Assembly: GCA_977862235.1 (NCBI GenBank)
Contig: OZ374562.1
Coordinates: 2,046,001 to 2,110,000 of the forward strand
DNA from: Dudresnaya verticillata
Lineage: Eukaryota
Direction of reading: 5' to 3'
DNA length: 64,000 nt
Both the position numbers and the translations under genes were made by a program. The notes beneath the pieces were generated by a model. That model searched no databases. It saw only the letters and a program-made list of their open reading frames with translations, and was not told where the DNA came from. This document shows, piece by piece, positions 2,844-64,000 of this stretch; positions within the stretch are counted from its first letter, which is position 1, and every line of letters starts with the position of its first letter.

Positions 2844-2845
2844 TC

Positions 2846-2863
2846 TGGTCTCCCGGCCTAGAA
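2846..2863 (+). promoter_or_regulatory. Primer binding site, tRNA-Tyr-like
   Basis: TGGTCTCCCGGCCTAGAA 2 nt after the LTR; its complement ends CCGGGAGA-CCA, like a eukaryotic tRNA-Tyr 3' end. Confidence 0.8.
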
Positions 2864-2895
2864 TTGTGCTACGTTTCAACGAGTGACTCCGTCGT

Positions 2896-5554: not shown

Positions 5555-5698
5555 CTCGGGCACCGAATCCTGACACTGGGGTGTCGCACCATGAAGAGAG
5601 GCCTAGGCCTCGGGTGTTGACACGGAAAGAGCCCCGAAGTTAGTTTCTGATGACGCCAGTGGGCGGATAGAGTCGTCACAGACGTCATTAAAACGCCC

Positions 5699-8600
5699 AT
5701 GGCGAAGGTACCAGCCCCCCAGGCGCGGGGGCAGTTGTTCGTAATGGCCAAGAGGAACTATAAGGTGTACGCCGACTTGGGCGCAACCGTTAGTACCTTG
5801 GCACGTAAACTCACTGTCCTCGATACGGGGGCTGGTCTGAATTTCATTTGTATTGACGACATTCCGCTGGAAGCGCGATCAAGCATCGTGGCAACGAGTC
5901 TCCCCGTCATAGCCGACGCCAACAATAAGGCGATCCAGACAAGAGGCACCGTCGACCTGGTCGTTCGTCTGGGACGGCGAGTCGTCAAGTTGGAACTGAT
6001 CGTTTGCGAGCGACTCGCTGCGCCGGTTATACTCGGCTGCGACTTTTGCGACTGCTTTGTCGAATCAATATATCCGCGAAGTCGCGAGGTCGAATTGGAC
6101 GACGGGACTCGTGTCCCTATAACGCGCCGCCCCCTGCGCCGACCCCCGTCGTATCCTCCGTTACCAACGGAACAGGAATACGGCAAGGCCGAAGGAAGGA
6201 CGTCGCCCAAGATACGAGTAACAGTGCGCGCGATCATCCCGCCTATAGCGCAGCAATGAGTATCGGTTACCACCAAGCGCGCCGGCGTCATCACAATTCA
6301 ACCGTTCGGAACGCTGTACGACAAACAAGGTCTATCCGTTACGAACGGGATTGCCCAAGTGGAGCCGCTAAAAGCACTTCGAATTTTGGTTGCCAACTTC
6401 TCTTCCCGACCGCAGGCGCTGGCCAAAGGCCAAGTCGTCGCGACGGCGTTACCATATCCGACAGCAGTGTTCCCCAGTCACGTAAGTCTAGCCGATGTTT
6501 TGGGCCTCACAGAGGAACAGGCCGAGGAGGAGAGGGCAAACCAAGACTTCCGTTTTCAAACGAACGATAATACTACGGCACAGCTGAATACTTTCACGAA
6601 GTCAATCGAGGCAATCACTGCAAAGCCTCCGTCAGTAGACGATTTGGACCTGGGACATTTCCCCGCCGAGCATCAAGGCCATCTTAAGGAGATGTTACGC
6701 AAGTATTCGTCTATGTGGGACGGTTCGTTTGGAGAAATCTCAACGACGGAGCACTACATCGACTTGCTTCCCAGCTCTAGGCCGATATCGTCCCCGCCTT
6801 ACCGAGCGGGGCCGAAGGAAAGACAACTCGCTCAATCGGAAGTGGACCGCATGCTGCGTCAAGGGGTTATCGAACCCGCACAATCGCCGTGGGCCTCACC
6901 AGCGGTTTTCGTCCCCAAGAAGGATGGGACCCTCCGCTTTTGCGTAGACTACATCCATTTAAACGCAGTAACCGTACGGGATACGTACCCTCTGCCCCGT
7001 ATCGACTAATGCATTGACAGTCTAGGGGAAACAAACGTCTTCACCACCCTAGACGGTAACAGTGGGTACTGGCAGGTGCCGATCAATCCGCGAGATCGCG
7101 ATAAGACCGCGTTCACGTGCCACGCCGGACTGCTCCGCTATAAACGTATGCCTTTCGGTCTCACGAACGCACTCGCTACGTTTCAACGAACGCTGGAAAT
7201 ACTGCTCGCGGGTTAAAAGTGGCGTTCGTGCCTCGTCTACCTCGACGACGTAATAATCTTCTCCAGCTACATCGACAGTCACTTCCGTCATGTTGACGAG
7301 ATCCTTTTGACACTGCACCCCGCCGGGGTGACCCTGAAGTTGACTAAGTGTGACTTCCTCACCCCGACCGTCAACTACTTGGGTCACGTCATACATCCAG
7401 GACGGTTAGAAGTTGACCGAACTTTCACTGCTGCGCTATGCGAAGCCAAGCATCCAAGGGATCAGAAGTGGCTACGGAGCTTCCTCGGTCTTTGTAACCT
7501 CTACAGACGGTTCGTCTCGCGATACGCGCATGTCCCCGCCCCCCTCAATACGTTGCTGAGGAAGGAACAGGAATTTCTGTTACAACCATTCGATGAGACA
7601 CAAGCCAAAGCGTTCAGTACGCTCGCCGAGGCCGTGACTCACCCGCCTATACTGGCGCTACCACAGCAGGGTCTCCCCTATTCCGTCGATTGTGACGCAA
7701 GCGAGTATCAGGTTGGCTGCGCTCTCTTTCAAACGCAGCCCGACGGAGAGCGTAAACCATTCGGCTTCTGGTCTCGCTCGCTCACCGCTCCAGAACGTAA
7801 CTATTCGGTCTCCGAAAAGGAGTGCCTCGCAGTAGTATGGTCCATCATGACGTTGCGACCTTACCTCGAGATGGAGTCATTCACAGTCCATACGGACCAT
7901 TCGTCACTGAGGTGGCTGATGGAAATCAGCGACCCCTCTTGACGGTTAATGCGGTGGCGTCTTCGCCTTTCTGAGTTCGACTTCGTCGTGAAATACAAAA
8001 AGGGGTACCTTAATACTCAGGCAGATGCCCTTTCGTGTCTACAGACGGCGGGGGAAACCGTCGAACCCATTGACGATGATGTACCATGCTACCACGGAAG
8101 CTACGTCGAAGACGGCCATCAAACGTCACAAGACGATATGTCAGAGGCCGAAGGCGAGGTTGACTTCTCCGAACGAGAGTTCGAGGCGTTTGACCAAGTG
8201 TTGATCAAAAACACGCCACCGGCGGATGAGGTAATCCTTCGTCAAGTGACGCATGAGGCGTTGGTACACGCACAAGGCAATGACCAATACTGTAACGAAA
8301 TCCGGAAGCATCTGGGCGACGGAGTCATCTTACCGTTCGCAACGGATTAACAGGGCCTGTTGGTCCGAACAGTAGAAGCCCGCTCGCAAGTAGTCGTACC
8401 CTCCGCGTTACGTGCTCGCTTACTCCACCTCCGGCACCACGCCAAGTTGGTAGGGCACCCAGGGGGGCGTAAGTTGTATCAGACGCTTCGACGCGAATAT
8501 TATTGGCCATCCATGCCAGTTGACTGCTACGCGACCGTCCGCAACTGCGTAACCTGCGCTAAGAATCGCATATTGTTGCGAAAGAACACCAAGGAATTGA

Positions 8601-10225
8601 AGTTATTCCCGGCAACCGAGCCTCTCGAGTTCTTATCGATCGACATTCTGGGCGAACGCATAAGAACGAAGCGAAGCGAGGAAACAAATTCCTACTCGTC
8701 ATTGTGGACCGCTTCTCGAAGCTGGTCCGGACGGTGCCATTACGTAGTATGACGGCATTGGAAATCGCTAAGGCGTTTGTACGACACTGGGTCTTCGAGT
8801 ACGGCCCCCAAGAAACTGTTGTCCGACGACGGACCACAGTTAGTGGCTAAGTTGTTCCAGGATATCTGCCGTCTTTTGGGAGTGGAGAATCTCTTCACCA
8901 CGACGTACCATCCGCAATGCAATGGCCAGATAGAACGATCCAATCGAACTATCCTGGCCTCGCTGCGTCACTACGTTGCGGATCATCCGAGATATTGGGA
9001 CCTGTTCCCAGATGCCTTGACGTTCGCATACAACACGCAGTTGCATTCATCTACGCATCCCGCTCCGTTTGAATTGGTGCTGTCTAAGCCACCACGGCCA
9101 TTTTCGCTTGAAGCGGAACCGTCGCTTGAAAGCGTACCCACCGCGGGGCAATACTATACCAAGTGGCGAACCTGGCTGGCCGCAGTGATGGGAACCGCTA
9201 AAGCGTCGTTAGAGAAAACTCAAGCACGTTACAAACGGAACTTCGATACCCGATTAAGGAAATCGAAAGAAGCCATCGCCGTAGGCGACTTCGTATTCGT
9301 ACGCAAGGAATACTTCGCCCGAGGCGGGGGCACTGATTGCGCAGAACGCAAGCATAAGTTGGCGCCAGTGGCGGACGGACCATATCGGGTCGCGCACGTT
9401 GATAACGAGACAGTAACCGTCGATAAGGGACGTGAAGAGCGGGAACGCTTGTCCCGAGACCGCGTGGTCTGGGCACCGACCCCACCGGGTCAGGTGGCCC
9501 CTCCAATCGTCGTGCCCCCCGGCCCACCCGCGACGCAGGACGCAGTCGCCCCCACGTCACAAGACGAAGGGACGACTACCCCCGACCCGCCACTAGCGAA
9601 CCCAGAGGGTGACGCAGAGACTTCGCATACTGCGGGAGATCCGCAGGAGCGCACAAAGGAAACGTCACGCAGTCGTGGGTTGGCAGAGCTTTCTCCCTTC
9701 GCAGCCGACCCTGACGACCGCGCTTCGCAATCCGTCTCCAACGACGACAGTACCCCAGGGGTTCGCACCCGTTTGGAACACGTCGCTACGACACCGCGTT
9801 AACCGTGCAAGCACGAAGCAAACGCTGCAAGCGATGACGTCGTCCCAAGATGCAGCACACCAGTCACCTTTGAAAGAGCATCCAAGGCCCAAGGCCAACG
9901 CCCTCGGCGATCACCCCGTCGAGTCCGCTTCGCCAAACCGGTACAGCTGCCCATCACGCAACGGGACGAACCGCCAAAGGCGCTGGCGGGGCCCACGCCC
10001 CAGCCGATCGCTGCGAGCGGGAAGGAATACGTTATTGAACGCATCAAGTCGCAAACGAACGCGGATGATGATGAGATCCTCTACCGCGTCAAGCGGAATG
10101 GATACCCCGCTTCAGCGAACACCTGGGAGCCAGTCTCCAGTTTGCCGCGATCACACGTCGTGCGGTACCACGGTCGGAAGCACACGCGCCTGCCGCCCAA
10201 CATTGACGACGCTCAACGCGGGTAA
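5699..10225 (+). pseudogene. pol: Pol of element A (protease, RT, RNase H, integrase, chromodomain); multiple stops
   Basis: LDTGA protease; [16 protein letters not shown] near 7238; DCDAS...RNYSVSEKEC; HHCC and DDE integrase; chromodomain EYVIERI...YRVK...NTWEP at about 10026-10190. Confidence 0.95.
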
Positions 10226-11695
10226 ACTAACCGGAGAAACAACGCTCAAAGCGAACGCGATGACGATCGAAACTGCACGAGCGCACAACGGTCGCCAAAG
10301 GCGTGGAACCCCCATCTAACGTATGTGGACGCGGGCACACCGCTGTGGCGACATACCGGCACACACGTCACAGACGGGGAGGGACGCAAATACTTGGGTC
10401 ACAGACGGCCATCCCAACGGCCCTCATACAGAGCTCCCGGAGGTGACGATGGCTGACAGTGGATCCAGATCCCTAGTAGAGATACACGACCCACCAATCC
10501 AGCGGCACGACGAAGACCAGCATTGGAAATTTTAATGGACAAACACAGGGGAGGCGGACTACCCGACAATCCATCTCTACGCCAAACGCGATAGGCCAAG
10601 TGGCAACACGGGCACTACGAGCGCGCACGACGGCAGACGCACTTCGAACCGCGCAAGGACCGTCCCCGAGGCTGACGCCGGCTCGCGCACCACGTCCAAG
10701 TCGCTGCAGCCTTCCATTACCCAGGCAGCAAACGCCTCGGCCACGCACGAACACACGCACAACGTCCCCAACATACCTCGCGCAGGAGGGGCACGCCGCC
10801 GAACCCGCCGCGAAAGGGGTAGTGAGGCGTCGAGGACGCGATTATCACGGTTCCGTGCACGACGCACAACCAAATCGCTAACCAAATTGCCCAATGGCTC
10901 CGCCGCTGAGAATGGCCGCCACGGTCGCGCGACGACCATTCCCCACCCTCGGAGGAGAACGTCAGAGACGAGGAACAAGGCAACTCGCCCACCAGTAGCT
11001 ACCGTACCGACCACACGTAGACCTCCGTCAACGACGATGCGCACAACTACCCTAAGCTACAGCGCACCAAGCGAGAAAAGATTACAACCTACTCCGCATG
11101 CAAATGGCCCACGCTCATGCGCAAGCCGCGGTCCGAACTCGAAAACATCCAAAAACGCTTTGAGCGAGTCCCCCATGACGATTATGTCGAGCGTGGCAGG
11201 ATGGAATGCAACGCAAGGAAACGCTTTGCTAAGCGAAATAACTAAGAGGCTCGGCCCCGACAACGTCAACAATAGTTGTCGCCAACGAAACACAGCTCCG
11301 AAAACAACGCCCAAGTAACCTTTCTAGACGATTAACACAATAACATCGCCACGATGAGACAAGAAGTAGGTGAACGCTCGCCGAAGTGACACCATTTCTC
11401 ACTATACGTGCAGCATGAGTTCGCTAACACGCCCGCAAGACGCGGTGGCAATACACTACAACACGACGGCTGCAACACGAAGGTTGCAGCGAGAAGAAAC
11501 CAAACTACGTTACCAACGATAAAATCTATTCGGGCTAAGCAACGGGAAAGCCCCGCGCCCAAGCTACAAGCCACGGCGGCTAAACGCCGCAAAACATTCA
11601 ACAAATTCGTCAACGACGTACGATGCCCTACCTTCCGACTCCGCAAAGGAGCCGACAAGGTACCACAACACGCACCCCCGCGACGGCCTTTTGTG

Positions 11696-14228
11696 CTAAA
11701 CGACGCTAACTACGTCACGTCGCAGACGGTTTTGCTGAGCCCTCCGCACCATCGCCCTCGCCGGAGTCCCTTCATAGAGGTCATATTTCGTCACCGACGG
11801 CACACCCACAGCAGAAACAGGGACGGACCGCAAAGGCACCGCCACCACCACTACTGAAGGAGTAATACGCGCCGCTGACGAAGAGTTCGACTCACCACCC
11901 GCCTTAGGCGGCGAAGCCTCTTTGGCTTTGCCAACCACCGATGGCGTCGAACCAAGTCGGTCATTCGCCCCCGGCGCTGCCACGATAACATCCGCCTTCA
12001 GCGTAGTTGTAGGGACTGTCCCCTTGGACGACGAAGCAACCACAACCGCCTTTGGCGTAGAGTCTAACTCATCACTCGCCTTCAGCGTCGCAACAGAACC
12101 AACCGCCTTCGGCGCAACTGTCGCAACCGTGTTAACTGACGTAGACCCCTCAACGGCCTTTGGCGTCATTGGTTCTATATCCGTCATCGACGCAGGAGCC
12201 ACTGGACCCTCCTCAACCGTCGAAGACGTTGTAGCGACATTTGCTTCGCTCGCCGCTGGCAGTACAGTAGCAATTACGTCTTCGGAGGCTGAACCAGTCG
12301 CCTTAGGCGATGACGACTTTTCGTCTGCACCGTCTTTCGACGCAGAACCTACACCAACCATCGGTACCGGCACCGACGCACCTTGGGGTCGCGACGCAGC
12401 CGCCAGAGACTGGCCCACCCATTCGGTGGGTGAGCCGCTCAAACAGCTAGCAGCGACTCCAGCAGCCCGCAATAACGCGAGCACGGTGCGGTGCTGTTCC
12501 TCGGTCCAGAACGGCATTGAGGGCGCATTCACTGATCCGTCTACGACGATTGATACTCCGCCTTGAGGCGTTACGGTCGTCGGAGCCGACTCGCTTTTGG
12601 CGTCGCCATAACGGCATCGCCAACCTCATCAGCGACGGGAGCCGCAAGGTCCAAGGGTGCAACAGCTGGCAAGCCACCCGGCATCCCAACACCACCGTCA
12701 GACCCTTCGGGCAAACCTGATGGTGGGGCCACAGCCTCGGCAGATGACTCAACCGCCATAGGCGTAACAACAGCCGTCCCAGACGGGTTCCCCGGTTCGC
12801 CATCGGCGTTAAAAGCACCCTCCTCTGCCATCAAGGCACTCAAGTGCGGAGGAAAGTCACCGACGAAGTCGCACCTCTTACGCAAACCACGCGGGTGATT
12901 ACCCGGTGAGCGGTCCGTTTTGAGATGACGCTCCGCAACGTTCTTCGTCGTACGACGCTTAGTCCATGGATTATAATGGATCCAATCGCCACAGGCGCAG
13001 TGAGTACGACTCATCGCGAATCGCGGGCGGTTCACCTTACGGCGGTTGTTCCCTAACGGCACCATCGCTGGGTCGTTCCAATTGACTTCATCCGCTACTG
13101 AGCGCAAATCCCAGAACTCCTGGCTGTTCCTCGACTCGCCAAGTATCTGGGATAGGTCAAGGCCACCAAGAGACACGACTACGCGAGGTGGCAGATAATA
13201 CATGCGAAAGGTGTCATACACCTCCCACATCCATGCGTACGCTACGTTTGCCACCCATTCGGTGTAGAACATCACCCACCGTTTGGCGTACGGGTCCGTC
13301 AGTAACTCCGACCCGAGATACGTGAGACACGGAGGGAGCTCGGCAGCGAAACCTTCGCAAATTTCGAACTCTCGCCACACTGGCGGCACCTTCACGAAGC
13401 AATGAGGCAACTTGCTGCGTTCGATATGATCGACCTGCATATCCTGGTAGGCCACAAAGACGCCCTTTCGGTGACGCGTTTCACACTCCCAACGTATGCA
13501 CCGTTCCCAAAAGAACGTACCCGTTCGGTGTTGGTAACGGAAATCCGCTTTCAAGCGCACTCCCAAGAGGTACGCCTCCTGTATGATACGCGGCTCTGCC
13601 GAGACGCTCAGATGTTTGAGCGATAACGTCCCTAGACGATTCCCATATTCGATCTCGCCATTGGTTCGGTATTGCCAAGCGTCAAACTCAAAGATGGCTG
13701 ACGTTAACGTCGAGCACGGATAACGCGTGGAGCGACGATAGACGTCTGCGACGAACTTGGCGTGAACGCCCCCACGCGATTGCCCTGCGCAAACCCACAG
13801 CCACTCGGGCGGCACTGCGCAGCGCAACTTCCAATCCATCGTCCAGAAGACGGCAAGGGGGAGTCCCCCTGGGAAAAATCCGCTGGTAGCGTAATGAGCA
13901 ATGAGCTCCTCATTGCGCAAGGCCTCCTGGTCAAACCAGGGGGCCTGCGCGAAGATGTCCCCGTGATCCTGCGAGTTCTTCCCGACAAAGTCGTGCGGCG
14001 ACAAGTATACCGGCGCGGCCGAGGGCGCCGCGACCTGAACACCATTGAACATCGGCATATCGTCAGCGACGCAATTTCGTTCACGCCACTGGCGCTTAAG
14101 GTCAAACAAACGTCAACGACGACTCTTGCCCAACGCCACAGGCGGTTATACTTTTTGATTACGTTAAGGACGCCTTTTGTTCCGCGCCACAGGCGACTAC
14201 GATGAGCTGCGTCACAGACGGGAAACAC
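11696..14228 (-). pseudogene. Antisense accessory ORF of element A (unknown protein, roughly 800 aa if frameshifts are repaired)
   Basis: 512-aa ORF 12571-14109 with globular, Trp/Tyr-rich composition; apparent frameshifts near 14107 and 12595 join it to the 14228 frame and to ORF 11696-12532. Confidence 0.8.
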
Positions 14229-14501
14229 TTGCGCCTTGGGCGATGAGATTCACAGAACTCGTCTACGACGATGCAACTTACACGCCCCAGGCGACGAATT
14301 GGATGTGGCGTCGTTGATGGGATTCGCAATTCCCTAGCGGCGATGATGCACGGTGAAGAGAGAGCTCGCCGGACGCAACGCGCAGTACGCGAAGTTAGCA
14401 CGGCACAGCCGGAACGCAGGAACGCACGAACGACGAAGTGGGATCCGCAGAGAAACGCAAGCGGCAAGTCGCGTCGAGCGGCGGACGTGTTCGCGTTTTG
14501 C

Positions 14502-14508
14502 GAGGGGG
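14502..14508 (+). promoter_or_regulatory. Polypurine tract of element A
   Basis: GAGGGGG 3 nt before the 3' LTR. Confidence 0.6.
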
Positions 14509-14511
14509 TCG

Positions 14512-15377
14512 TGTGGTGCAACGGGAGGGCTGCCCCTTTTTCGCTTTGAGCGTATTATATGCCAACGTCTACCGACGGCACTTCAACCGCCGTTGGCGCG
14601 CGAACACGTCATGGACGATTGGCTCACGGGCATACGGCCGCCGATACCCCGCGCGGCGCGGTGCGCGCGCGCACTGTACGGGCAGATCCGGATGTATCAT
14701 CCCGATCGACAAGGCGCAAGGCGCACGCCTGTAAGCGTGGCCCGGATCTGGATCGGATCCGGATGGGGACATCGGGATGCGACATCGGGATCCACAGTGA
14801 TGTAAGGAGCGCGCCCGTAATGGCCGCGCGCCAGCAATGCTGGCGGGGATCTGGATCCGAATCCGGATCGCCCGCACTTCTACACGCATGCGCCTGTAAG
14901 TCACCCATTACTCGCACGCACGCCTGTAAGCTACTCCCGAGCTCCCGCGCACGCGGCTGCATGGCGACGACGACGTGTCAGACACTCGACGGCGCGACAC
15001 GCGTCCTGAGTTCCCGCGCACCGCGCCCGCCGCCGTCGCCCACGTAGTATATGAGGTAATCCGTCTGAGACGCTGAGTAAACCCCGGACAAGCCGGCCTT
15101 GGTACAGACTTCCCCATTCCGCACGCGCGTACCCTGCCGCTGCCTACGGCCTAAGCGTCTACCTCCCGTGCTTCCACGTCCCTCACCGTCCTTGACGTGT
15201 TTCCTTTTTGTTCCCTTTTTCCTTCCTTTCCGCCTCGGGCGTCTACAGTCCGCCCAAGGCGTGTCCACTGCTCTACCACAAGCCGCCCAAGGCGAGGCTA
15301 CTCACCGCCACGGGCGTAGCTACCCACCGAGCCCCGAACTGCTCGGCGGTGTTCCGTCTTCAGACGTTTGCACCACA
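14512..15377 (+). repeat. 3' LTR of element A
   Basis: TGTGGTGCAA...TTGCACCACA followed by TSD ACCAA. Confidence 0.97.
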
Positions 15378-23780: not shown

Positions 23781-23816
23781 GCAACTGAATCAAACAACAT
23801 TGAAAGCTCGGATTAT

Positions 23817-51217: not shown

Positions 51218-51772
51218 CGAGTCGGCTTGTTAACAAGGAGCGAAGCACGCCCACAGCAATGAGAAGGGGCGGGCGGCACTTCGGAGAGAGAGAGAGTTGG
51301 CTACGCCCAGCTTGCAGCCAGCGTCGCTTCGGTCTTTGATGCGGTCCGCTTGTAATTTCCTTGTCGGGGAAACTCCAGCTTTCCCCGCAGCCGCGGAAAT
51401 CTGATAACGGTTGGAAACCAAGGATGCCATCATGGCCTTTATTCATTGGTCCGCCAGAATTTCCGATTTCCGATTTCCCCGGTTCCAAGCCGGATAGAAT
51501 GGCCCTCAATGGCGTCGTGCTGTTTCCAGAAATTCCATGCACTGTGACCAGCAATGCGTTGGGAATTACAGTCCGACAGCGCGAGGGGCGCATTACAGGC
51601 GTACTGCACGCGCAATATTACTCGCATATTACAGGCACACGCCACGTGTACTGCGAAAAGGCTCGAGCGGCTCATTCTCCCACAACGGACCGGACCGCCC
51701 TGGCCACGCTGACTTTTATATCGGGACAGCACGGCGACGGCTCCTAAGGTAAACGGACAAGAAACCCTTGGG

Positions 51773-52448: not shown

Positions 52449-54094
52449 TGTGGTATAATGAGCCGCCAGGGGCTGTAAGCCATCACGTAGCGTGTGCCTG
52501 AAGTTTGTGCGCGTGTTCGCCGAGTGTGCGTCGGAGCGCTGTAAGCATGCACGCATTGCTGGGCGCAGCACCGTACCATTGAGATGGCTCCCCATTGTAG
52601 CATCTCGAAAGGCACCCCCCAGTACGGGGCCGAAATGAGACCCCAAAGGACCAGGAAGACCGATCGGATTTCGTAGCAAACGGCCGAACGTAGAGCGGAC
52701 CTGCACGCCGGTAGCAAGGGCTGTAGAGCGGGAGCGCACAGACGAAGTCGCGGCCAAAATCCTGGATGAGCAGTGGAAAATGGCCGAGGTGGGAAAAGGT
52801 TGCAAAACTTTACTCCCAACCTCTGGCGGGAGGGCTTCGTACCTATCCTGGCCGAGCCGTAGTTTGTGGGCGTCTAAGTAGACCCAAAATCGGCCATTGG
52901 AGCTAATCTAGAGCTATTCTACAGTTAGTGGCCGAGGTTACTCCCCGTCGGCCGTAATATCTACTTGTGTTCCGGCGTCGGGCCAATGTCATACCGTTAC
53001 CGGTCTAAACCAAGTACTTGTCCGTTAGTGGTTGGCCAAATGAGTTAGATTTTCCCTTGAATTTTCGGCTGTCTTCCTCTTGATTTCACTTGCGGCCAAA
53101 TCCAATTTCCTCTTTTCGCTTGTCTCCAGATCCGATCACACTGATCATGCGTGTACAGCGGGCCACGTGGTGCGCTTGGGTGTCGTAGGTGACCACGTGT
53201 GACACACGTGTACACTTGTTGGACACGTGTGTTTCTTGCGCGTGTTCACCGGTGTCCGCCCGGCCACACTGTCGTCGGCTGGCCAAACGTCCCTTTTTGA
53301 TTGGACCGACTGTCCTACTTGGCCCGGCCGATTGCGCCCGTTTCGGAGGCCCCTTGGTGTTGCGCCACACCGATAATTGGCTGATTAACCATAGCCGTTA
53401 GCGCTCAAGTGTACGTGCACAGGACGGTATACTACCGCTAATTCCCGCATTGTAATTGTTAACGCTAAGTCAGATAGCTTAGAATAGGAATAGCGGCGAA
53501 GGCGCTTCCGGCGTTCGTGATACATGTTGCGCCCCTGAGTAGCAGGGGTCTGCTGAATAGATCCCTACGGTGGGTTTCGGGTCTGTACCCTTTTTCGATC
53601 TAAACAGGCTCACCGTACCTCCTTCCTTCAAGGTGCTTTACAAGATTTAGTCGCGTACGACTTGGTGCTCTACGTGCTCTAGGGTGGCGCCGCCCCCTTC
53701 TTCCTCCCCTTTAGGCTCGCTTGCCTTTTCCTTTTTCCCTAAGTCTCTACCAGCCCTTCTTTCTGAGCTACCCTCGTTAGGGTGTACGCGCAGACAGGAC
53801 AGCTGTCTTGGCTGAATAGCGGGCTACTGGCTCACTGCGTGATAGTACTACACAGTGCCGTGCACCGCATCCGCGTGGGCTGCGTGCAGTGGCGGCGCTG
53901 GTGGCGCTGGTTCCGCTAGCGGCGCTGGAAATTCTGTTACCCGTCGCGGCGCGCTCCTGCTCTACCACCTTTACTACCGGTGCGCAGGTCCGTTCTACGT
54001 TCGGCCGTTTTGCTACGAAATCCGACAGGTCTTTTGGGTCTTCTTGGAGTCTCGCCCGGCCGCCGTACTCGGTGGTGCCGTTCGAGATACTACA
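52449..54094 (+). repeat. 5' LTR of element C (about 870 bp without the nested insertion)
   Basis: Inverted termini; PBS follows; colinear with the 47500-51684 LTR. Confidence 0.82.
52596..53369 (-). repeat. Solo LTR nested in the element C LTR
   Basis: TGTAGCA...CGCCACA; TSD CCCAT/CCGAT; 52596-52740 is an inverted match to 53945-54094. Confidence 0.75.
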
Positions 54095-54095
54095 C

Positions 54096-54113
54096 TGGTC
54101 TCCCGACCTAGAA
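54096..54113 (+). promoter_or_regulatory. PBS of element C, tRNA-Tyr-like
   Basis: TGGTCTCCCGACCTAGAA 1 nt after the LTR. Confidence 0.82.
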
Positions 54114-54866
54114 GATCAGCTGAGGTTTCGGCCGTGTCTCTCCGTTAGAAGACTCGAGTAGCTGGCCGTAGTCGACGACGGCCAGTATCTTCCTCGCTAC
54201 TGTGGTGGCCAAATCCCGCAAGTTGCAGATTGCGGGTTAGTAACTACCCGGTCTTGCAATCTGATTATCCGTCTACTTCAACCCGATTCAGTGGCCGCAG
54301 TCTAGGTCACAGGCCAGACACCCGTCGCTTGGTTCGTTCCCAGGTCGGCCGCTTTGCACACTTATTGGTTCGTTCCCAGCACAGGGAGCTTTGCATACGG
54401 CAGTGTCCGACCCTTGGTACAGGGGCTAGAACTCGGAATCGTCCGTTCCCACCCCTGTGTTTTGCACACGACAGTGTGGTTCCCAGGTAGGCTACTTTGC
54501 ACACGTCGGCCACGGGGTGTCCACGAATCGCTAGAAGTACACGGGAGATCAGTCTTCGAAGCACTTCTTCATGTCTTCTTCTTCTTCACGGGCAGGCGGA
54601 CAACCGCAGTCCTTATAAGGCTCGGCTCCGCCTCCCTCCACGTGGGCCGCTCCCATAGGGCCTCCACCGGCTCCTGGCCTTTATCCACCGTTATCGGGGC
54701 CAACACCAGCCCCTCCGGTCCCGTTATCGACTGGCCGGGGTATGCCTCCAACAGTCGGCCGAGCAGGGTCAGCCTCCACGGCAGGTGCCGTCCGTAATGA
54801 GGTACCGCCGAGGGCAGCTCTCCGATTTCGCCGTTTCGCACGCCACCAGCGGCCACCGCGCCGCCG

Positions 54867-56908
54867 ATGAGTCCGCTGGCCGCTCCTGCCAATCTTCGGC
54901 TGCCTCCGGTCGATGATGATTCCCAGCCAGAACATGATGTCTGGTTGGGCCGGCAAGAGTTCTACCAGTATAAGCGACGTACGGCCGATTGGCAACAAAA
55001 GGTGAAGAACCAGTTTGGCGAGATGCAAGTCAAGATGTCCACCACGGCTCTGATTAGGGACCAACAGCTTCGCCAAGAGATACACTCCGTCATTCTCGAC
55101 GGTGCACTTACGGCCATAGCCGAACTTTATGATGAGCGTCTGGAAAAGGTTGAGTCGGCCGTTTTCTCTTCCGACGGGAAGGTAAAACTGGCTGTTCCTC
55201 CTGTCCAGACAAGGTCCGAGTCCGCTCGGATGACACCGGCCAATCAACCAGTCTTGGCACCACAGGTTGGTGAACCGGTAGCAGCAGTGCAGAAGCAACT
55301 GGACAAGTTGCAAGATGAGATTACAGCCTTTTCGCATCCTGATAAGGCTCGGCCGAATATTCCAGTGGAAGGGGTACCACCGCAAAAGGGCAACACTCAG
55401 AACAGTGGTGCGCCCCACGACCTGCGTTAGTTGGACCTTCTGGCCCGGCTGAGGTAGGAGAATCTTTCACGGGATATGCCGGCCATTTGGATGAAACAGG
55501 TCTTCCAGTCGCAGCAATGGGGCCGATAGAACAGGGTCTAGAGCCTCTCAAGACCCTCCAGGAGACCTTCCGGCGGGTGGTGGATTACCGGACCCACCGT
55601 CTTCTGGATACTCGGCCGACGATGACTATGGAGGATGCGCGGCGCTTGTCCCGGATGACTCGCCAAATCCGGAACTTGTTCCCGCAGATGAACCCATTTG
55701 ACGGCCGACGCTCGATAGAACTTCTTTCTTTCCTCAAGGAGTTCAAGGATGCCTGTGATGGGACAAACGTTCATGAAGGGGCCGCTTTGCGTCTTCTGGC
55801 CTTCTTTACGGCCGGTGATGCGAAGAGGTTCTATTATGGCCGGATGTCCCGTGGTATACGGTCAGGACACTCCATCTTCCCGATGAGTGGATTTTCACAA
55901 TTCAGCTGGCCACACTTAGTCCATGCTTTCATCAAGCGCTACTGCACCGAAGATGTTCTGGCCGCCGCGTTTGACAAAGTGGCCAGAAGCAAACAGAAAG
56001 ATACCGAGACAGAAGCGGAATTCGCCGACCGGATAGGAGACGCGGCGCTGTCGTGCGCCGATGTCTTCTCGGAGAACACCCTGATCAACCATTATGTGAG
56101 GGGTCTAACTTCGACCACTCGTTCGGCCGTAGCTGAGAAGCTTATGCAGATGCGGCCGGAGGAGAAGGACTTCTCGACGGTGCGCCGTATAGCCATCGCC
56201 GAGGGGGAGACACACAGAGCCTACTTGGCTTCTGCACGTCCCAAAACAAGGTCGGCCAGTTCCCGAAGTGCGTTGGTCATCCCTACCCTTGCGGCCGAAC
56301 CTGCTTGGCAGGCGGAGCCCGAGAATATAGCGGCCAACTATGATGATCCGTTTGACACTATACCGGTTATGGCCATTACTCCTGGCCAGAATGGTGCTCA
56401 GCAAACACCGACAATGACGCCGACCACGCCGTCACCGGCTGGGTCGGTGTCCGGGGGTAATACCCCGGACCCACTCCGGAAGCCGCCAACGTTGACGGCC
56501 GATGAGCTGACCAAAGTCGCTATTATGCTACGCAGTGACAAGACAAGCGCCCGTTGTTGGGGTTGTCGCGAATGGGGCCATGATTTGTACACTTGTGTGT
56601 ACTTACCAAAGGCCATCAGGAACTTGTTTGCCATACGGAACTTCCACTTCCGAGATGAGTACTCTAGATGGCACCCTGAACAGTTTGCCGGCCGAGGTGG
56701 TCGAGGTTACCGCCCCGACCAAAGGAATGTCTCCTTTGGGGATGGAAGGGGACGCCCTCCCCCTCAGGGAATACTCCGACGGCCGCAGCAATCATCTTCG
56801 AACCGTGGGAATCGGCAGGATAAGTTAGTCACTACGCAAGAACATCCAATGGATGAGGTGGTGGCCTACGTCGAGTCCGATAATTCTTCGTTAGCATCGG
56901 GAACCTAG
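54867..56908 (+). pseudogene. gag: Gag of element C; one frameshift near 55430
   Basis: ORFs 54867-55430 and 55487-56908; CWGCREWGHDLYTC knuckle; similar to A and B gag. Confidence 0.9.
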
Positions 56909-56928
56909 CCGGGCCGAGATCTTGGGTC

Positions 56929-59900
56929 GTGATCCCGTTGCCCGTACACGTCCCAAAACCGGTTAGTCTCGTTTCCGTTAAGTTGTTTCCTTTTAGTAAC
57001 CTCCGTTTTTCTTCCTTGCTAGCCATTGCATGGCGTTTGGAAACGCCAATCCAGGTTTGGTCAACCCATGATTTGACCTACCACTGCCTATTTTCATCTA
57101 ACGGTCTGGTGTGGTCACCGCCTTGGCGGTTCGGCCACACTACATCATCATCATCCACCCCCATACCAAAAGATGGGGGTTCCTTGCCAAAGAGTGGCCG
57201 CAAACCATTGAACGAAGAAAAGAAAGACGTCTACCAGTCGGCCGATGTTTCATCACAAGGTATGGTTTGCATCCTGGGTGGGGCCAACTATACCCTCTCG
57301 GGTTCTTTTGGTCTCACCATCTCTGCCTTGATACCCGGACCCGTAGTCTTAGACACTTGCTCCGGGTGGAACATCATCCGATTGGATGTGTTGCCTCCCA
57401 ATTGGAAGGACAACGCACTTGTGTTGACATCCATACCTCTCCTAGGGGACGCCAACCAACGGCCGATTCACTTTCGAGGGGCCGTTTCCTTGGTCGTGCG
57501 CTTAGTCCGTCTTTCATATAGAGTGCCGTTCCTGATCTCCGACCTTCGATTTGCTGTACCCATCTTACTGGGTACAGCCTTTTTGAACACGCACGTGGAT
57601 AGCATCCAGTGTCGTGGTCAAACCGTGCGCTTAGTGCGCGGAGATGTCCTTCCGCTGCTCCCTGACAGCACTTCGATGGCTCTGGGGGCAGAGCCAACCG
57701 CTGCGAAGGGGGCCCCGCCTCCGGGTAATTCCAATTCGGCCAATATGGAACGCAAGCCTCCACGACACTACGCGGCCACTGTACGCTTGACAAAAGGTCT
57801 GACCATACGGGCAGGTCAACAGGCTAACGTGTCTGTTCGCAGTGCCGGCCGGGGTTTATGCGTGTTGGAGCCCAAACATTCTTTGAGCTTCCGGCACCAT
57901 ACGCGAATGGCCAATGGAGTTGCAGAAGTTCGGCCGCAGAAGCCATTCCAGGTAATGCTGGCCAACTGGGGATGAAAGGATGTCTTATTACCGAAGGGTA
58001 CGGTAGTCGGCTACGCCGTCCGTCACCCTATGGCAATCCTGACGCCACACCGACGGAGCGTGGAAAATATGGCCAATGTACTTGGACTCACCCCTCTGGT
58101 GGAGCAGGACATTAGTGAAGTAGAAGTAGAAGAGGTCGGCCAAGAAAAGGACAAGTCTTCGGAACCAGAGACACCCAGAAATGACGCAGAAGAATGGCGG
58201 GACAAGATCAAGCTTGATCACATCCCGGACAAGAAGCAACGTAAGAAGATAATGGCCATTCTGGAGAAACAAAGTGCGATGTGGGACGGTTCCTTGGGAC
58301 AGATCATGGCCACCGAACACCGAATAGACTTGGAGGATGGGACACGGCCAATAAGAGCCATGCCGTACCGACAGGGACCAGCGTTACGTGCAATCTCTGA
58401 CGCCGACATTAAGAAGCAGTTGGAGGCTGGAGTGATAGAGCCATCGTATGGAGAATGGGCCTCGCCAATTGTCATGGTGCCCAAAAAGGATGGCACTCTC
58501 CGCTTTTGTGTCGACTACCGCCGACTCAATGCGAAGAAAGTTGGCGACGCATACCCGCTCCCGCTCATGGACGATTGTATAGATTCCCTTGGGGATGCGG
58601 CCGTGTTTTCTACCTTGGACTGTAACTCAGGTTATTGGCAGATACCAGTGGCCGAAGAAGACAAGGATAAGACGGCCTTCAATTCCCACTTGGGGATATT
58701 CCGGTATAATCGAATGCCGTTTGGATTGAAGAACGCACCGGCCACATTCCAGCGCGCGCTTGATATAGTTTTGTCCGGCGTCCGTTGGCAAATATGTCTC
58801 ATCTACTTGGACGGCGTCATCGTGTTTTCTAAGAATGTGGAGGACCACCTGGGCCATCTGGACGAGGTGCTTACCTTGTTGAAGGCGGCCGGTATTACAT
58901 TGAAGCTGAAGAAGTGTTCGTTCTTCCAGACCAAAGTAGATTACCTAGGTCACGTGGTGACCCCCGGGAAGCTGAGTATGGCAATGCAAGGAACCAAGGC
59001 AATTCAAGAGGCCGAGTTTCCAGGTACCCTTACGGAACTCAGGTCCTTCTTGGGGAGCTTGCAATGTCTATCGAAGGTTTGTGGCCAAATACTCTACGAT
59101 CGCACGGCCACTCACGCGTATGCTATGCAAGGATGCAGAGCCAAACTTTGAGCAGCCGACAGAGGAACAGAGTCGTAGTTTCGAGAAACTGAAGGCAGCC
59201 CTAATCTCACCGCCGATCCTAGCCCTGCCTCGACATGGACGGCCTTATGTCATTGAAACAGGTACCAGCGCTTATCAAATTGGGTGTTTCTTACTCCAAG
59301 AGCAAGCGGACGAGACGTATCACCCAGTGGGATACTGGTCCCGCTCCCTGACTTCGGCCGAGAAGAACTATTCGGCCACGGAGTGCGAGTGTTTGTCTGT
59401 GGTGTGGGCCATTACATCGTTACGGCCATACGTTGAAGGGACGAAGTTCACGGTCCGCACGGACTATGACGCCCTTCGTTGGTTGATGTCGCTCACAGAT
59501 TAGTCAGGCCGCCTCACGAGATGGAGATTACGCCTAGCCGAGTTTGACTTTGTAATTGAATATAAGCTGGGATGCAAGAATCAGGTGCCCGATGCCTTGT
59601 CCCGATTTGTGGCCCCGCTAGAAAACGGAGACATACGGCCAATAGATGATACTGTACCTGCATTGGATGGTACCCCCTCTGTTCTCACGACCACACGGGC
59701 CAGGATAAATCGAGAAGTAGCCCACGTGGCCGATAGGAGGGAACGAAAAAACGAAGACGATGTTGATGCATGGGAAGAAGAGCATTTGATGGCCGATAAT
59801 ACTGACTACGGCCGGGCAGAAGCCTTCAGTCGCGCACAAGCAGAATGGAGGGCATCGGAGACACTCCCCGCACCATTGACACACGCCGAAATTATAGAAG

Positions 59901-61366
59901 GGCAGAAAAGCGATGACTTCTGCCAGACCATTATAGCTACACGTGCCGGTTTAGGGAAGTCCAAGAAACCCCTTTTCTTCGAGAGTATCCAGGGTGTCCT
60001 CTCCAGGAGGTGTCCTACGGATGGCCGACATCAAATAGTGCTACCCGCTTCGTTACACGGCCGTATCCTTCGGCTGTGTCATCATGCAGTTCTTGCAGGT
60101 CACCCTGGCCAGAACCGTATGTATCAGACACTCCGCCGGACGTATTATTGGCCACATATGGCCGCTGATTGCCTCGCCCCTATTCGGAACTGTGGCCAGT
60201 GCGCCAAGAATCGGATTCGCAGGCTACGCCATACGTCGAGGTTGAAGCTGTTTCCGGCCAATCAACCCTTGGAGAGCGTGGCCATGGATCTGCTTGGGCC
60301 GTTACCTCGGACGAAGAAAGGCCATGAGCATATATTAGTCATCACATGCTGTTTCTCTAAACTGACACAGGTGGTACCATTGGCCAAAATCACTGCGTAC
60401 AATGTGGCCATAGCCTTTTGCACTCACTGGTTTTTCAAATATGGAGCGCCGAAAACGGTACTAACCGATAATGGGGGGCAGTTCGCGGCCAAATTCTTTC
60501 AAGCGGTTTGTCCTCAGTTGCAAGTGGCCAATATATTCACGACGACATACCATCCACAGACCAATGGTCAAGTGGAGAGGTGTAATCGGACGCTGTCGGC
60601 CATGCCGCGAAGTTATGTGCATGAACACCAAACCGATTGGGACCAATATGCGGCCGCACTGATGTACGCGTACAACTATCATGTACATCGTTCTACGGGA
60701 ACTACACCGTTTGACTTGGTGCTGAGTCGGCCACCAGGACCGTTTTCGTTAGAAGCCACGCTAAATCGGCCAAAACCAACGGGAGCAGTCAAGGAAGCTT
60801 TCCTCCGAAGGTTGTCAGAGGCTGTGGATAAGGCATCGGCCAGTCTAACTCGCACGCAGACACGCTACAAGAAGGACTTTGACCGTTCAGTGCGAACGGG
60901 GAATAAGTCACTGGCCGCAGGAGAGTTCGTCTACTTGGATAACCCGGAAATACAGCCGAAGAAACTGGAGCACCACGCACAAGGGCCGTATAAGATTATA
61001 AGTAACGATGGCCGAACCTTCATGATAGACCGGGGTGGCCAGTTGGAACGCGTGAGCTCTAGCCGAGTTGTCGCGGCGCCAAGGCCACAAGGGCAACCAC
61101 TGGCTCCGGAAACTATGACTAGTGCTGCCCTTGGCAACCTCCCAGAGGGCGTGGCAGCGACGGCCGAGGAGTATGTCATTGACAAACTCACGGACATGCG
61201 CCAATATTCTACCGGCCGACGTTGGTTCCAGGTCAAGTGGTATGGTTATCACGGCCGAACGTGGGAGCCAGAAACTCTCTTGCCGGCCACATTGGTCTCC
61301 CGTTTCTTCGCGCGCATGGCGCGTCGAGCCACACCAACCCAAAGCAGTAGCGGTGGGCAGGTGTGA
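56929..61366 (+). pseudogene. pol: Pol of element C (PR, RT, RH, IN, chromodomain); a few stops and frameshifts
   Basis: [25 protein letters not shown] (decayed YLDD); KNYSATEC; MDLLG/TDNG/NGQVER; EEYVIDKL...FQVKWYGY..RTWEP. Confidence 0.95.
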
Positions 61367-62162
61367 AGTCGGCCGTTATAAGTCCAAGCGAGTGAAGCTA
61401 AGCGTCCGGCCGAAGACAAGTGTGGGTGAGGGAGCTGGTGAGGTCGAGGGGGGTCAGTGCTGGGTGGCAATAACATTTGGTGAACACATTTGGCACCAAC
61501 ACACGACGGCGGCCATTTAGGGCTGGACTACCCAGGTGCGTCTCGGCCAGATCACGAATGAATCGGCCAAAATCTCCAAGAGGCACGAGCTGGGACCGAG
61601 TTGAGTAATAGTGATTGGATGGTAAAAACTCACCATCCGGTCCTGGGGATGAGTAAGGTTAATTGCAGCCCGAAATCGTGCCGACATCCGAAGAGACATG
61701 GCGGCGGTTCCGACCTTCGCGGCTTGGCCACTTACACGTATGCTCCCTCGTAGAAAGACGGCCGAACTATTGCATCTTGAAGAAAGAATATCGGCCGAAA
61801 ACGAAGATGGAGCAAGTTGGCCGACCTACTGTAGCGCGACCGGAGCGCGAAGGCAACCTTGGCATCGGCCGAAGGATGAGGCTAACAACCGTAGAGCAAG
61901 GGGGAGCTTTCAAGAAACCCCCAAGAAGAAGACAACCATTAACCTTTAACTAAAGTTGGCCGAACACTAAGGGGAACAGCTGTTCCGAAAACAGGGAACC
62001 ACTTACCCGGTGTCGGCTGAAGTACTTCTATTATTGGCCATCAACTTTTGAACATAACAACAACTAGACAAAGACGGCCATGAACACACTAACATAACAT
62101 TGGCCGAAGAGAAAGGACGCCAAGCCTTCACAAGAACTTGGCCATCCACTTGAAGATGGCGG

Positions 62163-64000
62163 TTAACGCCGGAAGTAGAGGTCAGCGTACTCGCCTGGCC
62201 GAGAAGAGTAGGGCATCGGAGACCTTGATCCCGCTGCCCCACCAGCATCCGACGAAGGGTCGGCCGTGCGTGGTAAGAATGGGCTGGCCGCGGGAAGAGA
62301 CATGGAAGGCGTGCCAGCCATACTAGAACGCGGAGCCGCCACCGGGGTGCCAGGGACCGAGGGCCCCGCACGAGCGGGCTCAGGTTGATAATCGGACGGC
62401 CGAGGCGCAACGCGACTTTGGCCGTAAGGGACATCAAAGACTTGAGCCGGAGTTGTAGGAGCCTGGGTCGGTGTAGCAGCTCCCGGCGTCCCAGCAAAGT
62501 TGGGCATCATGGGAACATTGGCCGACAGTTGCTGATTGGGATGATAGTGAGACGGAAATTGGCCAAACGATGGAGCGGCCAGTGCCCTCATGGAAGCCAG
62601 CTGGTGGAAGCTGCGGTTGCGCTCCAAGTCCAGTAGCGTCTGCTGCTGATGGGCCGAGTCGCACCAACGGTCGCGCTGGCGCCTCCACTCCTCGCCCTGC
62701 TCCTTCTGCATGGCCAACTTATCCTGGGCATCCCGGTTAACACCGTTGAGTCGGTTCAGTTCTCGTTTCAAGTCGGCCAACTCTTCTTCGAGCTTATCAC
62801 TAACGGCCTTATCCGCATCTAGATAACGTCGATAGCGTGCAATATCGGCCAAGTCCTTCTCCCGCATCTCCCCGAATCGGCGGATGCATTGGTCCAGTTG
62901 GCGTAAGATAGTCACCAACGGGGCTTGGTTCAAATGGCCCCTGACACTAAGCTCGGCCACAAGTCGAGGATGCGGCTGGAGAGTTTGCGGCCGAATGATG
63001 GAAGCTTCGTTGGCCACTTCCACGCCGAAGCTGCTACCGTGGCGGAAGGTAATCTGCTTACCCCAATCGAAACCACAGTACGGCGCGTCTTGCGACCCAC
63101 GGCGAGAAAACAAGTGGAGACGGTGACGGACAGCATCGGCCAACTTGTCGTAGAGGTCCACCACGTCCGGCCAATACACATCGTTGTACAAGTGCTGGTG
63201 TGCGGGGTTCACCGGAAGCGAAGGGAGATCCTTAATGGCCGAAACTCTCTTCTCAATACTCTGAAGGGGCATCCACAACATCCGCTTGGAAGCTTGTGCT
63301 TCGTATCGGAAAAACATAGCGGCCATAACATGAATCTCCCTAGTCTTGATCTGCCGCAAGTAACCGCACCAATCCACTTCAGTCGGCCGTGTGTTGTACT
63401 GATGAACGAAGTAATAGGCCGTGGGACTCAACAAAGGACACTCGCCAGCAGTCGGCCATTCAGACCAAAGGAAGGCCGGAATTGATGGGAAGGTAGTCAC
63501 AGGCGGCCAGAAACACTGTTGCCCACGACCACCGGCCAAGTAGATGTAGCAACCGGTCGTCTGATGAGCAACCCAGTCGGCCGGCGCAATCACGCGACGT
63601 AAGTCCGTGCTGGCCCACTTCGCACTACGCACCACGGCCTGATCTGCACGGTCCAACATCCAAGACTGCGGGAAGGAATGCCACCAAGTCAACATATATT
63701 ACATCACGGAACTTCGGCCGGTAAGCGTAAGCCAAGCTTGATGGACCAGCAAGACGTCGCCCATGTTGAGTAGGAAGGCGCGGTCGCATCCAATCTCCCA
63801 TGGCACCCAATATAAGTGGCCGCCAGCGCGCGAAGAACGGAACTGGCGCCAATTGTCGGCCAGGTTGTCGGGACTCTCACGAAGACGAACCATATCCAGT
63901 TTCGGCGAAGTAGCCACCAGCTCCGTGTAGTTGATGTAAACTCTCGGAAACTTCGGCCATATGGACATGTCGGGCAAACTCGCGTCCAGTCGCAACTCTG
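62163..64000 (-). pseudogene. Antisense accessory ORF of element C (more than 600 aa, one in-frame stop at 63699-63701; start at or beyond the window edge)
   Basis: ORFs 63699-63995 and 62163-63695 share a frame; aromatic-rich domain, coiled-coil-like segment, P/Q/S-rich tail. Confidence 0.82.

What the first reader, a model, noticed from the sequence alone, without database searches (positions are those of the whole stretch)
54095..64000. Element C is saturated with the palindrome YGGCCR
Seen, by manual count: 16 YGGCCR in 61321-62220 (mostly non-coding; every GGCC there is YGGCCR) and 18 in 59581-60660 (integrase coding). About 1 per 700 bp is expected from base composition, and only about 4 occur in the homologous integrase of A (8341-9300). 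The motif runs through the leader, gag, pol, spacer and antisense ORF regardless of frame or strand. Inference: a selected element-wide cis signature (protein binding, chromatin or modification mark, or RNA packaging) rather than codon usage.
Basis: seen in the sequence. Interest (0 to 1): 0.85.

Follow-up and report, generated by a model that had tools for sequence, protein, structure and literature searches.

The report
Retrotransposon recoded with one spaced palindrome
A jumping gene, likely from a red seaweed, carries the six-letter palindrome YGGCCR about every 80 bases through its terminal repeat, genes and spacers, eight times more than chance and unlike its neighbours and relatives, which likely reflects selection for a coat of DNA-binding protein, possibly one the element encodes itself.

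Summary
Confirmed, and larger than reported. Element C is a Ty3/Gypsy LTR retrotransposon, probably red-algal, whose 5' LTR starts at 52596. It holds 142 YGGCCR in 11.4 kb (shuffles 16.7±4.0) against 55 in the other 52.6 kb.

The excess survives synonymous-codon shuffles (102 vs 33±4.5). It is near saturation: Ala is GCC in 60 of 69 site-making contexts, against about 32% elsewhere. It has also shifted the integrase's peptide content beyond all 120 homologs. Sites avoid each other below about 20 bp (7 gaps vs 26), and the two half-sites vary independently.

Neighbouring element A and the five nearest relatives lack the signal, and no word in 68 other coding sets approaches it. C carries an orphan antisense gene, unrelated to the antisense family of its relatives and predicted to dimerise through a coiled coil.

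Best reading: a selected, dispersed array of binding sites for a two-fold symmetric DNA-binding protein (about 0.6). The binder is most likely that antisense protein (0.35, VANC-like), otherwise a host factor. Binding is not shown, no second copy or genome was available, and methylation-repair drive or RNA structure remain possible.

The parts
52681..63959 (.). Dispersed array of 142 YGGCCR sites (CGGCCA 45, CGGCCG 44, TGGCCA 27, TGGCCG 26), 12.5 per kb, no periodicity, gaps under 20 bp avoided; runs to the window end
52596..54094 (+). 5' LTR of element C (TGTA...TACA, 1499 bp) with unusually long inverted ends (about 145 bp, 82% alike); 14 sites
   Evidence: sequence and self-BLAST; LTR identity inferred from the ends and the PBS, since the 3' LTR is outside the window
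53331..53999 (+). Site-free middle of the LTR; 53412-53852 is 73% identical to 47608-48049 on the other strand; possibly the promoter/R region or an imported segment (inferred)
   Evidence: chance of so long a gap about 0.024
54096..54111 (+). Primer-binding-site-like sequence after the LTR end, shared with relatives L173, L175, L014 and, with one difference, element A
   Evidence: the tRNA was not identified
54801..56908 (+). gag region in two overlapping frames (54801-55430, 55346-56908); 25 sites
   Evidence: Pfam Retrotrans_gag E=1e-4, below the curated cut-off; 30-35% identity to relatives; count
57250..59503 (+). Protease-like region, reverse transcriptase and RNase H; broken by stops ending at 57975 and 59503 and a frame change near 59060; 21 sites
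   Evidence: Pfam RVT_1, RT_RNaseH; protease region by likeness to relatives only; counts
59504..61366 (+). Integrase with weak C-terminal chromodomain; 28 sites; motif-compatible peptides 0.071 per residue against 0.044±0.008 in 120 homologs
61367..62162 (.). Non-coding spacer, 15 sites in 796 bp (18.8 per kb), the densest large part
62163..64000 (-). Orphan antisense ORF, at least 611 codons, one in-frame stop at 63699-63701, start beyond the window; Trp-rich N-part, coiled coil, Pro/Ala/Ser tail; 27 sites; candidate binder
   Evidence: no homolog found; coiled-coil homodimer predicted
1985..15377 (+). Control: element A, full-length related Gypsy element (LTRs 96% alike) with its own antisense ORF of a widespread family; YGGCCR not enriched (O/E 0.7; 7 coding sites vs 12 in shuffles)

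Best explanation
Element C carries YGGCCR scattered every 80 bases or so across its LTR, genes and spacers, likely because copies with more sites were selected to be coated by a two-fold symmetric DNA-binding protein, which is inferred to be the element's own antisense-encoded protein and would keep the copy transcribable against host silencing. Shown: the excess, its independence from codon use, near-saturation of synonymous opportunities, the shift in integrase peptides, the short-range exclusion, and its absence from element A and from the relatives sampled. Inferred: (1) sites arose one by one by point mutation on C's own branch and were kept by selection among transposing copies; (2) each site is read on double-stranded DNA by a dimer, one half-site per subunit, covering about 20 bp, so a second site inside that footprint gains nothing and stays at background rate; (3) the binder is the antisense protein; (4) the benefit is anti-silencing or processive transcription. 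Steps 1-2 together about 0.6; with step 3 about 0.35; step 4 is by analogy only.
For: Saturation: Ala codon GCC in 60 of 69 site-making contexts vs 32/97, 21/70 and 7/18 in the other contexts. Sites vs synonymous near-misses are 101:24 in C and 7:44 in A, and the remaining near-misses are of many substitution types. No one-off class is emptied (O/E 0.69-1.70). Peptide shift: none of 120 integrase homologs reaches C's density over the same stretch, while conserved residues are spared (15/71 differ at site codons vs 175/726 elsewhere, p=0.66). Spacing: gaps <20 bp 7 vs 26±4, <12 bp 1 vs 11.8; site density 1.2/kb (background) at 6-11 bp from another site, 6.6 at 12-19, 20-23 beyond. Symmetry: Y and R independent (odds ratio 1.02), T/A flank preference on both sides without complementarity. 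Family specificity: nearest RT relatives L144, L147, L007, L151, L152 have O/E 0.2-1.2; top 5-mer z is 13.0 in C and at most 6.7 in 68 other coding sets. Antisense protein: outside the family found in relatives (HMM E=61, hhalign probability 0.1%). Predicted homodimer through residues 281-369: score 0.36, best of 3 controls 0.00, contact agreement at least 53%, pLDDT about 40; the mark was reached by 21 of 30 solved dimers and 0 of 23 single chains in microbes, 17 of 29 and 0 of 30 in eukaryotes. Precedent: VANC proteins bind short motifs amassed by their own transposons (PMC5735166, passages).
Against: No binding data. No DNA-binding, methylase or plant-mobile domain was found in the antisense protein. 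Antisense ORFs are common in this lineage (87 linked ORF pieces) and those elements show no comparable motif, so an antisense gene alone does not predict one. The link rests on one copy of one family. The five near relatives with 3' sequence show no antisense ORF of 200 codons, but only 389-2237 bp were held. One-off variants are also scarce near sites (9-14/kb within 20 bp vs 20-23 beyond) and synonymous near-misses are not enriched there (6 of 24), which a pure footprint model does not predict. The dimer model is a generic coiled coil of low confidence. The start of the antisense gene lies outside the window.
Confidence: 0.35

Rival explanations
1. Same selected DNA array, but the binder is a host transcription or chromatin factor that C recruits by dose, possibly in a former host from which C was transferred.
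For: All saturation, spacing and symmetry results fit any dimeric binder. Dose-dependent short motifs are known in plants: GATC downstream of start sites (PMC13547354, passages) and PMD-protein motifs opposing Polycomb (10.1101/2024.09.27.615353, abstract). No DNA-binding domain is seen in C's antisense protein.
Against: A generally useful host factor should be exploited by other families, yet A (O/E 0.7) and the rest of the window (about 1 per kb) are not enriched. The site-free stretch lies mid-LTR, where a promoter may sit.
Confidence: 0.27
2. Mutational drive, as proposed for cyanobacterial HIP1: a methyltransferase or repair activity acting on this family protects existing sites and fixes new ones, without a benefit per site.
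For: YGGCCR has the form of a type II methyltransferase target (the 14 papers holding the term appear from their listings to concern such enzymes). The HIP model also predicts saturation by distance (PMC4390886, passages). Red-algal transposons carry putative DNA methylases (10.1101/2025.02.11.637652, section 8). The 1 kb upstream flank holds 4 sites vs 1 expected (p=0.018, post hoc). GATC is low in C (0.58 vs 0.82±0.13).
Against: No methyltransferase domain in the part of C seen. A host enzyme should act on all families. No substitution class is singled out. CpG is not depleted (0.96), and C and T variants are not coupled as deamination series would be.
Confidence: 0.15
3. RNA-level selection: the self-complementary GGCC cores pair with each other to fold, dimerise or package the genomic RNA, or are repeated Gag-binding signals; close pairs are avoided because they make local hairpins.
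For: Predicted pairing at sites is higher than at other all-G/C tetramers (0.86 vs 0.75, p=9e-10). Near-misses are also scarce next to sites. Every part bearing sites would be in the genomic RNA.
Against: The pairing excess is expected from many copies of any palindrome and was not controlled for that. Perfectly self-complementary variants are not favoured (71 of 142; CGGCCA, which mispairs with itself, is the commonest), and flanks are not complementary (37 vs 40 expected). No Rfam match.
Confidence: 0.13
4. By-product of codon or amino-acid use, base composition, tandem duplication or assembly artefact.
For: 60 of 102 coding sites are in one codon phase.
Against: Survives dinucleotide and synonymous shuffles; densest in non-coding DNA; flanks differ from site to site (52 different 8-mers among 128 sites); no tandem array holds it; reading frames align with relatives across the sites.
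Confidence: 0.02

Closest known systems
VANC anti-silencing proteins of Arabidopsis VANDAL transposons (PMC5735166, passages read)
   Same: One transposon family amasses one short motif that relatives lack, and carries an extra gene proposed to read it.
   Different: VANDALs are DNA transposons; their 8-9 base motifs are non-palindromic, sit in non-coding regions and grow by tandem repeat. Here a retrotransposon holds a 6-base palindrome, scattered singly, mostly inside coding sequence. Binding and demethylation are shown for VANC and untested here; no sequence likeness to VANC/PMD was found by Pfam.
Bacterial DNA uptake sequences (PMC2817400, abstract read)
   Same: A short motif accumulates in coding DNA, raises the peptides it encodes (about twofold there, 1.6-fold here) and spares conserved residues.
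   Different: Genome-wide in bacteria and driven by uptake bias; here confined to one mobile element, palindromic and far denser.
HIP1 and alternative highly iterated palindromes of cyanobacteria (PMC4390886, passages read)
   Same: Iterated palindrome of methyltransferase-site form, with saturation by distance.
   Different: About one per kb genome-wide and tied to a methyltransferase; here 12.5 per kb in one element, exclusion range about 20 bp, no enzyme found.
Antisense extra ORFs of plant Gypsy elements such as Grande, RIRE2, Retand (PMC7264820, parts 1-2 of 3 read)
   Same: Antisense ORF between pol and the 3' LTR, unknown function; one is reported nuclear and another has an SMC-like domain.
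   Different: No associated element-wide motif is described in the text read; C's ORF has no detectable homolog.
Plavaka accessory gene PAG3 of red algae (10.1101/2025.02.11.637652, section 8 read)
   Same: Red-algal transposon accessory protein proposed to bind and modify its own element.
   Different: DNA transposon, ParB and oxygenase domains, local tandem inverted repeats; none of these seen in C.

Membership tests
Ty3/Gypsy LTR retrotransposon | Order gag, (protease), RT, RNase H, integrase | tested here: met
   Pfam hits in that order; protease region by likeness to relatives only
Ty3/Gypsy LTR retrotransposon | LTR with TG...CA ends followed by a primer-binding site | tested here: met
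   52596-54094 and 54096-54111; shared with relatives
Ty3/Gypsy LTR retrotransposon | Matching 3' LTR, polypurine tract, target-site duplication | not testable with these tools
   Element runs off the window; no genome held; no sequencing run listed
Chromodomain-bearing Gypsy (chromovirus-like) | Chromodomain at the integrase C-terminus | tested here: inconclusive
   PF00385 E=7e-4, 19.9 bits, below cut-off 25.1; many homologs carry PF00385; no named chromovirus references in the tree
VANDAL/VANC anti-silencing system | Mutator-like DNA transposon | tested here: not met
   C is a retrotransposon
VANDAL/VANC anti-silencing system | Motif in tandem repeats of non-coding regions | tested here: not met
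   About 101 of 142 sites are coding; none of 8 tandem rows has the motif as its unit
VANDAL/VANC anti-silencing system | Accessory protein related to VANC/PMD | tested here: inconclusive
   No Pfam, PDB or Atlas hit; no reliable fold; N-terminus outside the window
VANDAL/VANC anti-silencing system | Element-encoded protein binds the motif and lifts silencing | not testable with these tools
   Needs binding and chromatin assays
HIP1 / uptake-sequence type iterated motif | Genome-wide excess | tested here: not met
   55 sites in 52.6 kb outside the element; only this window could be examined
HIP1 / uptake-sequence type iterated motif | Accumulation in coding DNA with raised motif-encoded peptides | tested here: met
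HIP1 / uptake-sequence type iterated motif | Cognate methyltransferase or uptake machinery | not testable with these tools
   No host genome; none in the part of C seen
Antisense ORF family of related algal Gypsy elements (A, L011, L014, L076, L084 and others) | Sequence likeness to the family core | tested here: not met
   BLAST no link, HMM E=61, hhalign probability 0.1%; the coiled-coil-plus-tail layout is shared with L011, L013, L014

The most novel reading that the evidence does not exclude
A retrotransposon family has rewritten its whole sequence, proteins included, into a self-recognition code: an orphan accessory dimer binds a palindrome laid every 80 bases, giving the first retroelement counterpart of VANC, built by point mutation rather than tandem repeats, and a first function for an antisense accessory gene of a Gypsy element.
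Probability: 0.35. Interest if true: 0.92.

Novelty: new variant of a known kind. Interest (0 to 1): 0.76.

Why it matters
Motif saturation that bends protein sequence is known from bacterial genomes (uptake sequences, HIP1). [quoted passage not shown] A retrotransposon showing both would be a new route in the host-transposon conflict. Whatever the binder, the signal hands over a precise target sequence and footprint, so two open questions become testable: what antisense extra genes of Gypsy elements do, and how red seaweeds silence or license transposons. A protein that opens chromatin at a 6-base site could also be a tool. My ten literature searches showed no report of this pattern; the library lacks most subscription journals and I saw most hits only as listings.

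Tried and rejected
No genome is held; no sequencing run was listed, so copy-level variation, expression and genome-wide density were not examined.

Homolog searches for C's antisense protein found nothing usable: word-indexed search, 1.84 billion representatives, Pfam, NCBIfam and PHROGs (only weak coiled-coil matches), PDB sequences, viral contigs, four bins (best E 0.013-0.018), ESM Atlas (best 0.85, a lead only; no named hit). No single-chain model of it was used, so its fold is open.

The antisense family of relatives: search among longer proteins found none (near and shorter lengths not searched). Model pLDDT 59.8, no Foldseek match in PDB or viral libraries, best VIA Z 4.3 to helix-turn-helix domains in a low-confidence stretch: not meaningful.

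TGACG in element A as a second case: rejected. It is 51 vs 30±5 in shuffles, but z 4.8 is ordinary for a best word (others 3.0-6.7) and there is no gap exclusion (7 vs 9). Word excesses in L036, L023, L015, L010 are local repeats.

Periodicity: none, including 10-11 bp. Deamination series from CGGCCG: rejected. Enrichment of near-misses beside sites, which I expected: not found.

A triple-site pattern in four bins found no other saturated element. Viral-contig scans with integrase, RT or the primer site gave nothing close. No tRNA or Rfam hit. Three look-ups of earlier findings were empty. PMC9016345 is not held. No supplements were read.
Full report
OBSERVATION. The element holds 142 sites in 52596-64000 against 16.7±4.0 in 500 dinucleotide shuffles (max 28); the other 52.6 kb hold 55. 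In seven reading frames there are 102 sites against 33.3±4.5 under synonymous shuffling and 19.3±4.2 under codon-order shuffling (the two gag frames overlap by 82 bp, so one site is counted twice and later calls give 101). After the sites are masked no other GC-rich word stands out.

ANATOMY. Pfam gives gag (weak), RT, RNase H, integrase and a weak chromodomain in Gypsy order. Named integrase homologs are from Chondrus crispus (up to 49%) and Agarophyton chilense (37%); the best hits (up to 60%) are unnamed. A florideophyte red alga is therefore the likely host (inference). The LTR is 52596-54094, with about 145-bp inverted ends, followed by a primer-site-like sequence shared with relatives and element A. 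It follows an LTR fragment of another family (51773-52595). The copy is broken by stops ending at 57975, 59503 and at 63699-63701 and by frame changes. The 3' end is outside the window. Site density per kb: first LTR part 16.3, LTR middle 0 (669 bp), leader 12.7, gag 11.9, protease region 9.7, RT 8.3, RNase H 11.2, integrase 15.0, spacer 18.8, antisense ORF 14.7. The most conserved gene has the fewest.

SATURATION. Where an Ala codon decides the site, it is GCC in 60 of 69 cases, against 32/97, 21/70 and 7/18 otherwise. Sites outnumber synonymous near-misses 101:24 in C; in A the ratio is 7:44. The protein has moved too: peptides able to encode a site occur at 0.071 per residue in C's integrase against 0.044±0.008 in the 120 homologs held (of 284 hits), none reaching C over the same stretch. 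Against nine near relatives, 13 of 340 site-by-relative comparisons show a site, 12 of the 59 with the same amino acids. Site codons do not break conserved residues more than other codons (15/71 vs 175/726, p=0.66) and differ only slightly more at variable ones (82/114 vs 552/858, p=0.12). This matches what is reported for bacterial uptake sequences (PMC2817400, abstract).

SPACING AND SYMMETRY. There is no periodicity, but short gaps are missing: under 12 bp 1 vs 11.8, under 20 bp 7 vs 26.0±4.1 in a local-density null; 5 vs 15.3±2.8 when sites are redrawn among positions the proteins allow. Density is 1.2/kb, the background, at 6-11 bp from another site, 6.6 at 12-19 and 20-23 beyond. Y and R are independent (odds ratio 1.02), T is favoured 5' and A 3' (p=9e-13), and flanks are not complementary to each other (37 vs 40). 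This is how a dimer reading two half-sites on double-stranded DNA behaves (inference from general knowledge of such proteins). Against a clean footprint model: near-misses are also scarcer near sites (9-14 vs 20-23 per kb), partly explained by AT-rich flanks (GC 0.39 at 1-2 bp, 0.53 far), and predicted RNA pairing at sites is raised (0.86 vs 0.75; uncontrolled for copy number).

SPECIFICITY. Element A in the same window has O/E 0.7. In a quick RT tree of 75 rows (7 duplicate loci dropped; careful search unfinished) C falls in a 6-row group (SH-aLRT 96) with L144, L147, L007, L151, L152, up to 74% identical, whose O/E are 0.2-1.2. The gain thus lies on C's own branch. Among 80 sequence sets after tandem masking the top 5-mer z is 24 for C and at most 7.3 for others; under synonymous shuffles 13.0 against at most 6.7 in 68 others. 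No other copy of C's family was found, so all of this rests on one copy.

ANTISENSE GENE. The minus-strand frame has 2 stops over 62163-63998 against 9-31 in the other frames and runs off the window. Relatives carry a widespread antisense family (87 linked ORF pieces including A's), of unknown fold. C's protein is not detectably in it and has no homolog in any library searched, though L011, L013 and L014 share the globular, coiled-coil, tail layout. Five near relatives show no antisense ORF of 200 codons in the 389-2237 bp held after integrase, too little to call it absent. A two-copy model supports a parallel coiled-coil dimer over residues 281-369 of the unbroken part: score 0.36, best control 0.00, agreement at least 53%, pLDDT about 40; calibration 21 of 30 dimers and 0 of 23 single chains in microbes, 17 of 29 and 0 of 30 in eukaryotes, only 1 of 7 without an older solved relative. 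This fits a symmetric binder but shows no DNA binding.

MECHANISM. I judge a selected array for a dimeric DNA-binding protein at about 0.6, split 0.35 for the element's own antisense protein and 0.27 for a host factor. Family specificity favours the first; the lack of any recognisable domain, and the many antisense-bearing relatives without a motif, hold it down. A methylation-repair ratchet as proposed for HIP1 (PMC4390886, passages) gets 0.15: red-algal transposons carry putative methylases (10.1101/2025.02.11.637652, section 8), but no substitution class is singled out, CpG is intact and a host enzyme would not be family-specific. RNA-level selection gets 0.13. That YGGCCR is the EaeI/CfrI site is recalled, not from a call. 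Anti-silencing as the benefit is by analogy with VANC (PMC5735166, passages) and with H3K27me3 silencing of transposons in Cyanidioschyzon (cited).

COMPARISON AND NOVELTY. It works, on my best reading, like VANC, but fails membership (retrotransposon; dispersed, coding, palindromic sites). In pattern it resembles uptake sequences and HIP1 but is confined to one element. Plant antisense extra ORFs are of unknown function (PMC7264820, parts 1-2 of 3). Other papers opened: PMC9861306 and PMC13547354 (passages), 10.64898/2026.08.24.746577 and 10.1101/2024.09.27.615353 (abstracts). Ten searches showed no description of such an element; coverage is partial and no supplements were read.

VERDICT. 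Real, strong, family-specific and unexplained by composition. New variant of a known kind; interest 0.76. The mechanism is inferred and rests on one copy.

Noticed in passing
window 52592-52737 and 53951-54098: The LTR's two ends are inverted repeats of about 145 bp (82% alike), far longer than the roughly 10 bp of element A's LTR.
   Followed up: partly
window 12574-14112 (-); L011, L014, L076, L084, L072, L101, L123, L170 and others: A widespread, apparently undescribed family of 3' antisense proteins in these Gypsy elements (87 linked ORF pieces; Trp-rich helical core; no Pfam, PDB or fold match).
   Followed up: partly
window 1985-15377: Full-length element A, LTRs 96% alike; TGACG is 6.1 per kb against 1.05 in C and 2.2 elsewhere, but within the range of chance best words.
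   Followed up: yes
window 48374-49633 (+) and 49742-51229 (-): PIF/Harbinger-like transposon: DDE_Tnp_4 ORF plus a convergent second ORF, with inverted subterminal repeats at 48114-48168 and 51460-51513.
   Followed up: no
window 16936-18111 (-): Tc5/pogo-like transposase (DDE_1 and HTH_Tnp_Tc5).
   Followed up: no
window 20865-21464, 23816-24633, 25319-26083, 33568-34403, 40803-41636: Five copies (68-83% alike) of a 600-850 bp non-coding repeat family.
   Followed up: no
window 47608-48049: 73% identical to the site-free middle of C's LTR, on the other strand; probably part of another family's LTR.
   Followed up: partly
window 51596-52595: Four YGGCCR in the 1 kb just outside the LTR against 1 expected (p=0.018, post hoc): insertion preference, spreading or chance.
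   Followed up: partly
window 52596-64000: GATC is low in C (O/E 0.58 vs 0.82±0.13 in 12 controls); unexplained.
   Followed up: no
window 1-1236 (-): gag-like frame of a third Gypsy element running off the left edge.
   Followed up: no
L006-L015 (G001), L009 (G002), L010 (G003), L016-L041: Bins labelled as bacteria in the genome collection contain eukaryotic LTR retrotransposon contigs, likely host contamination.
   Followed up: no
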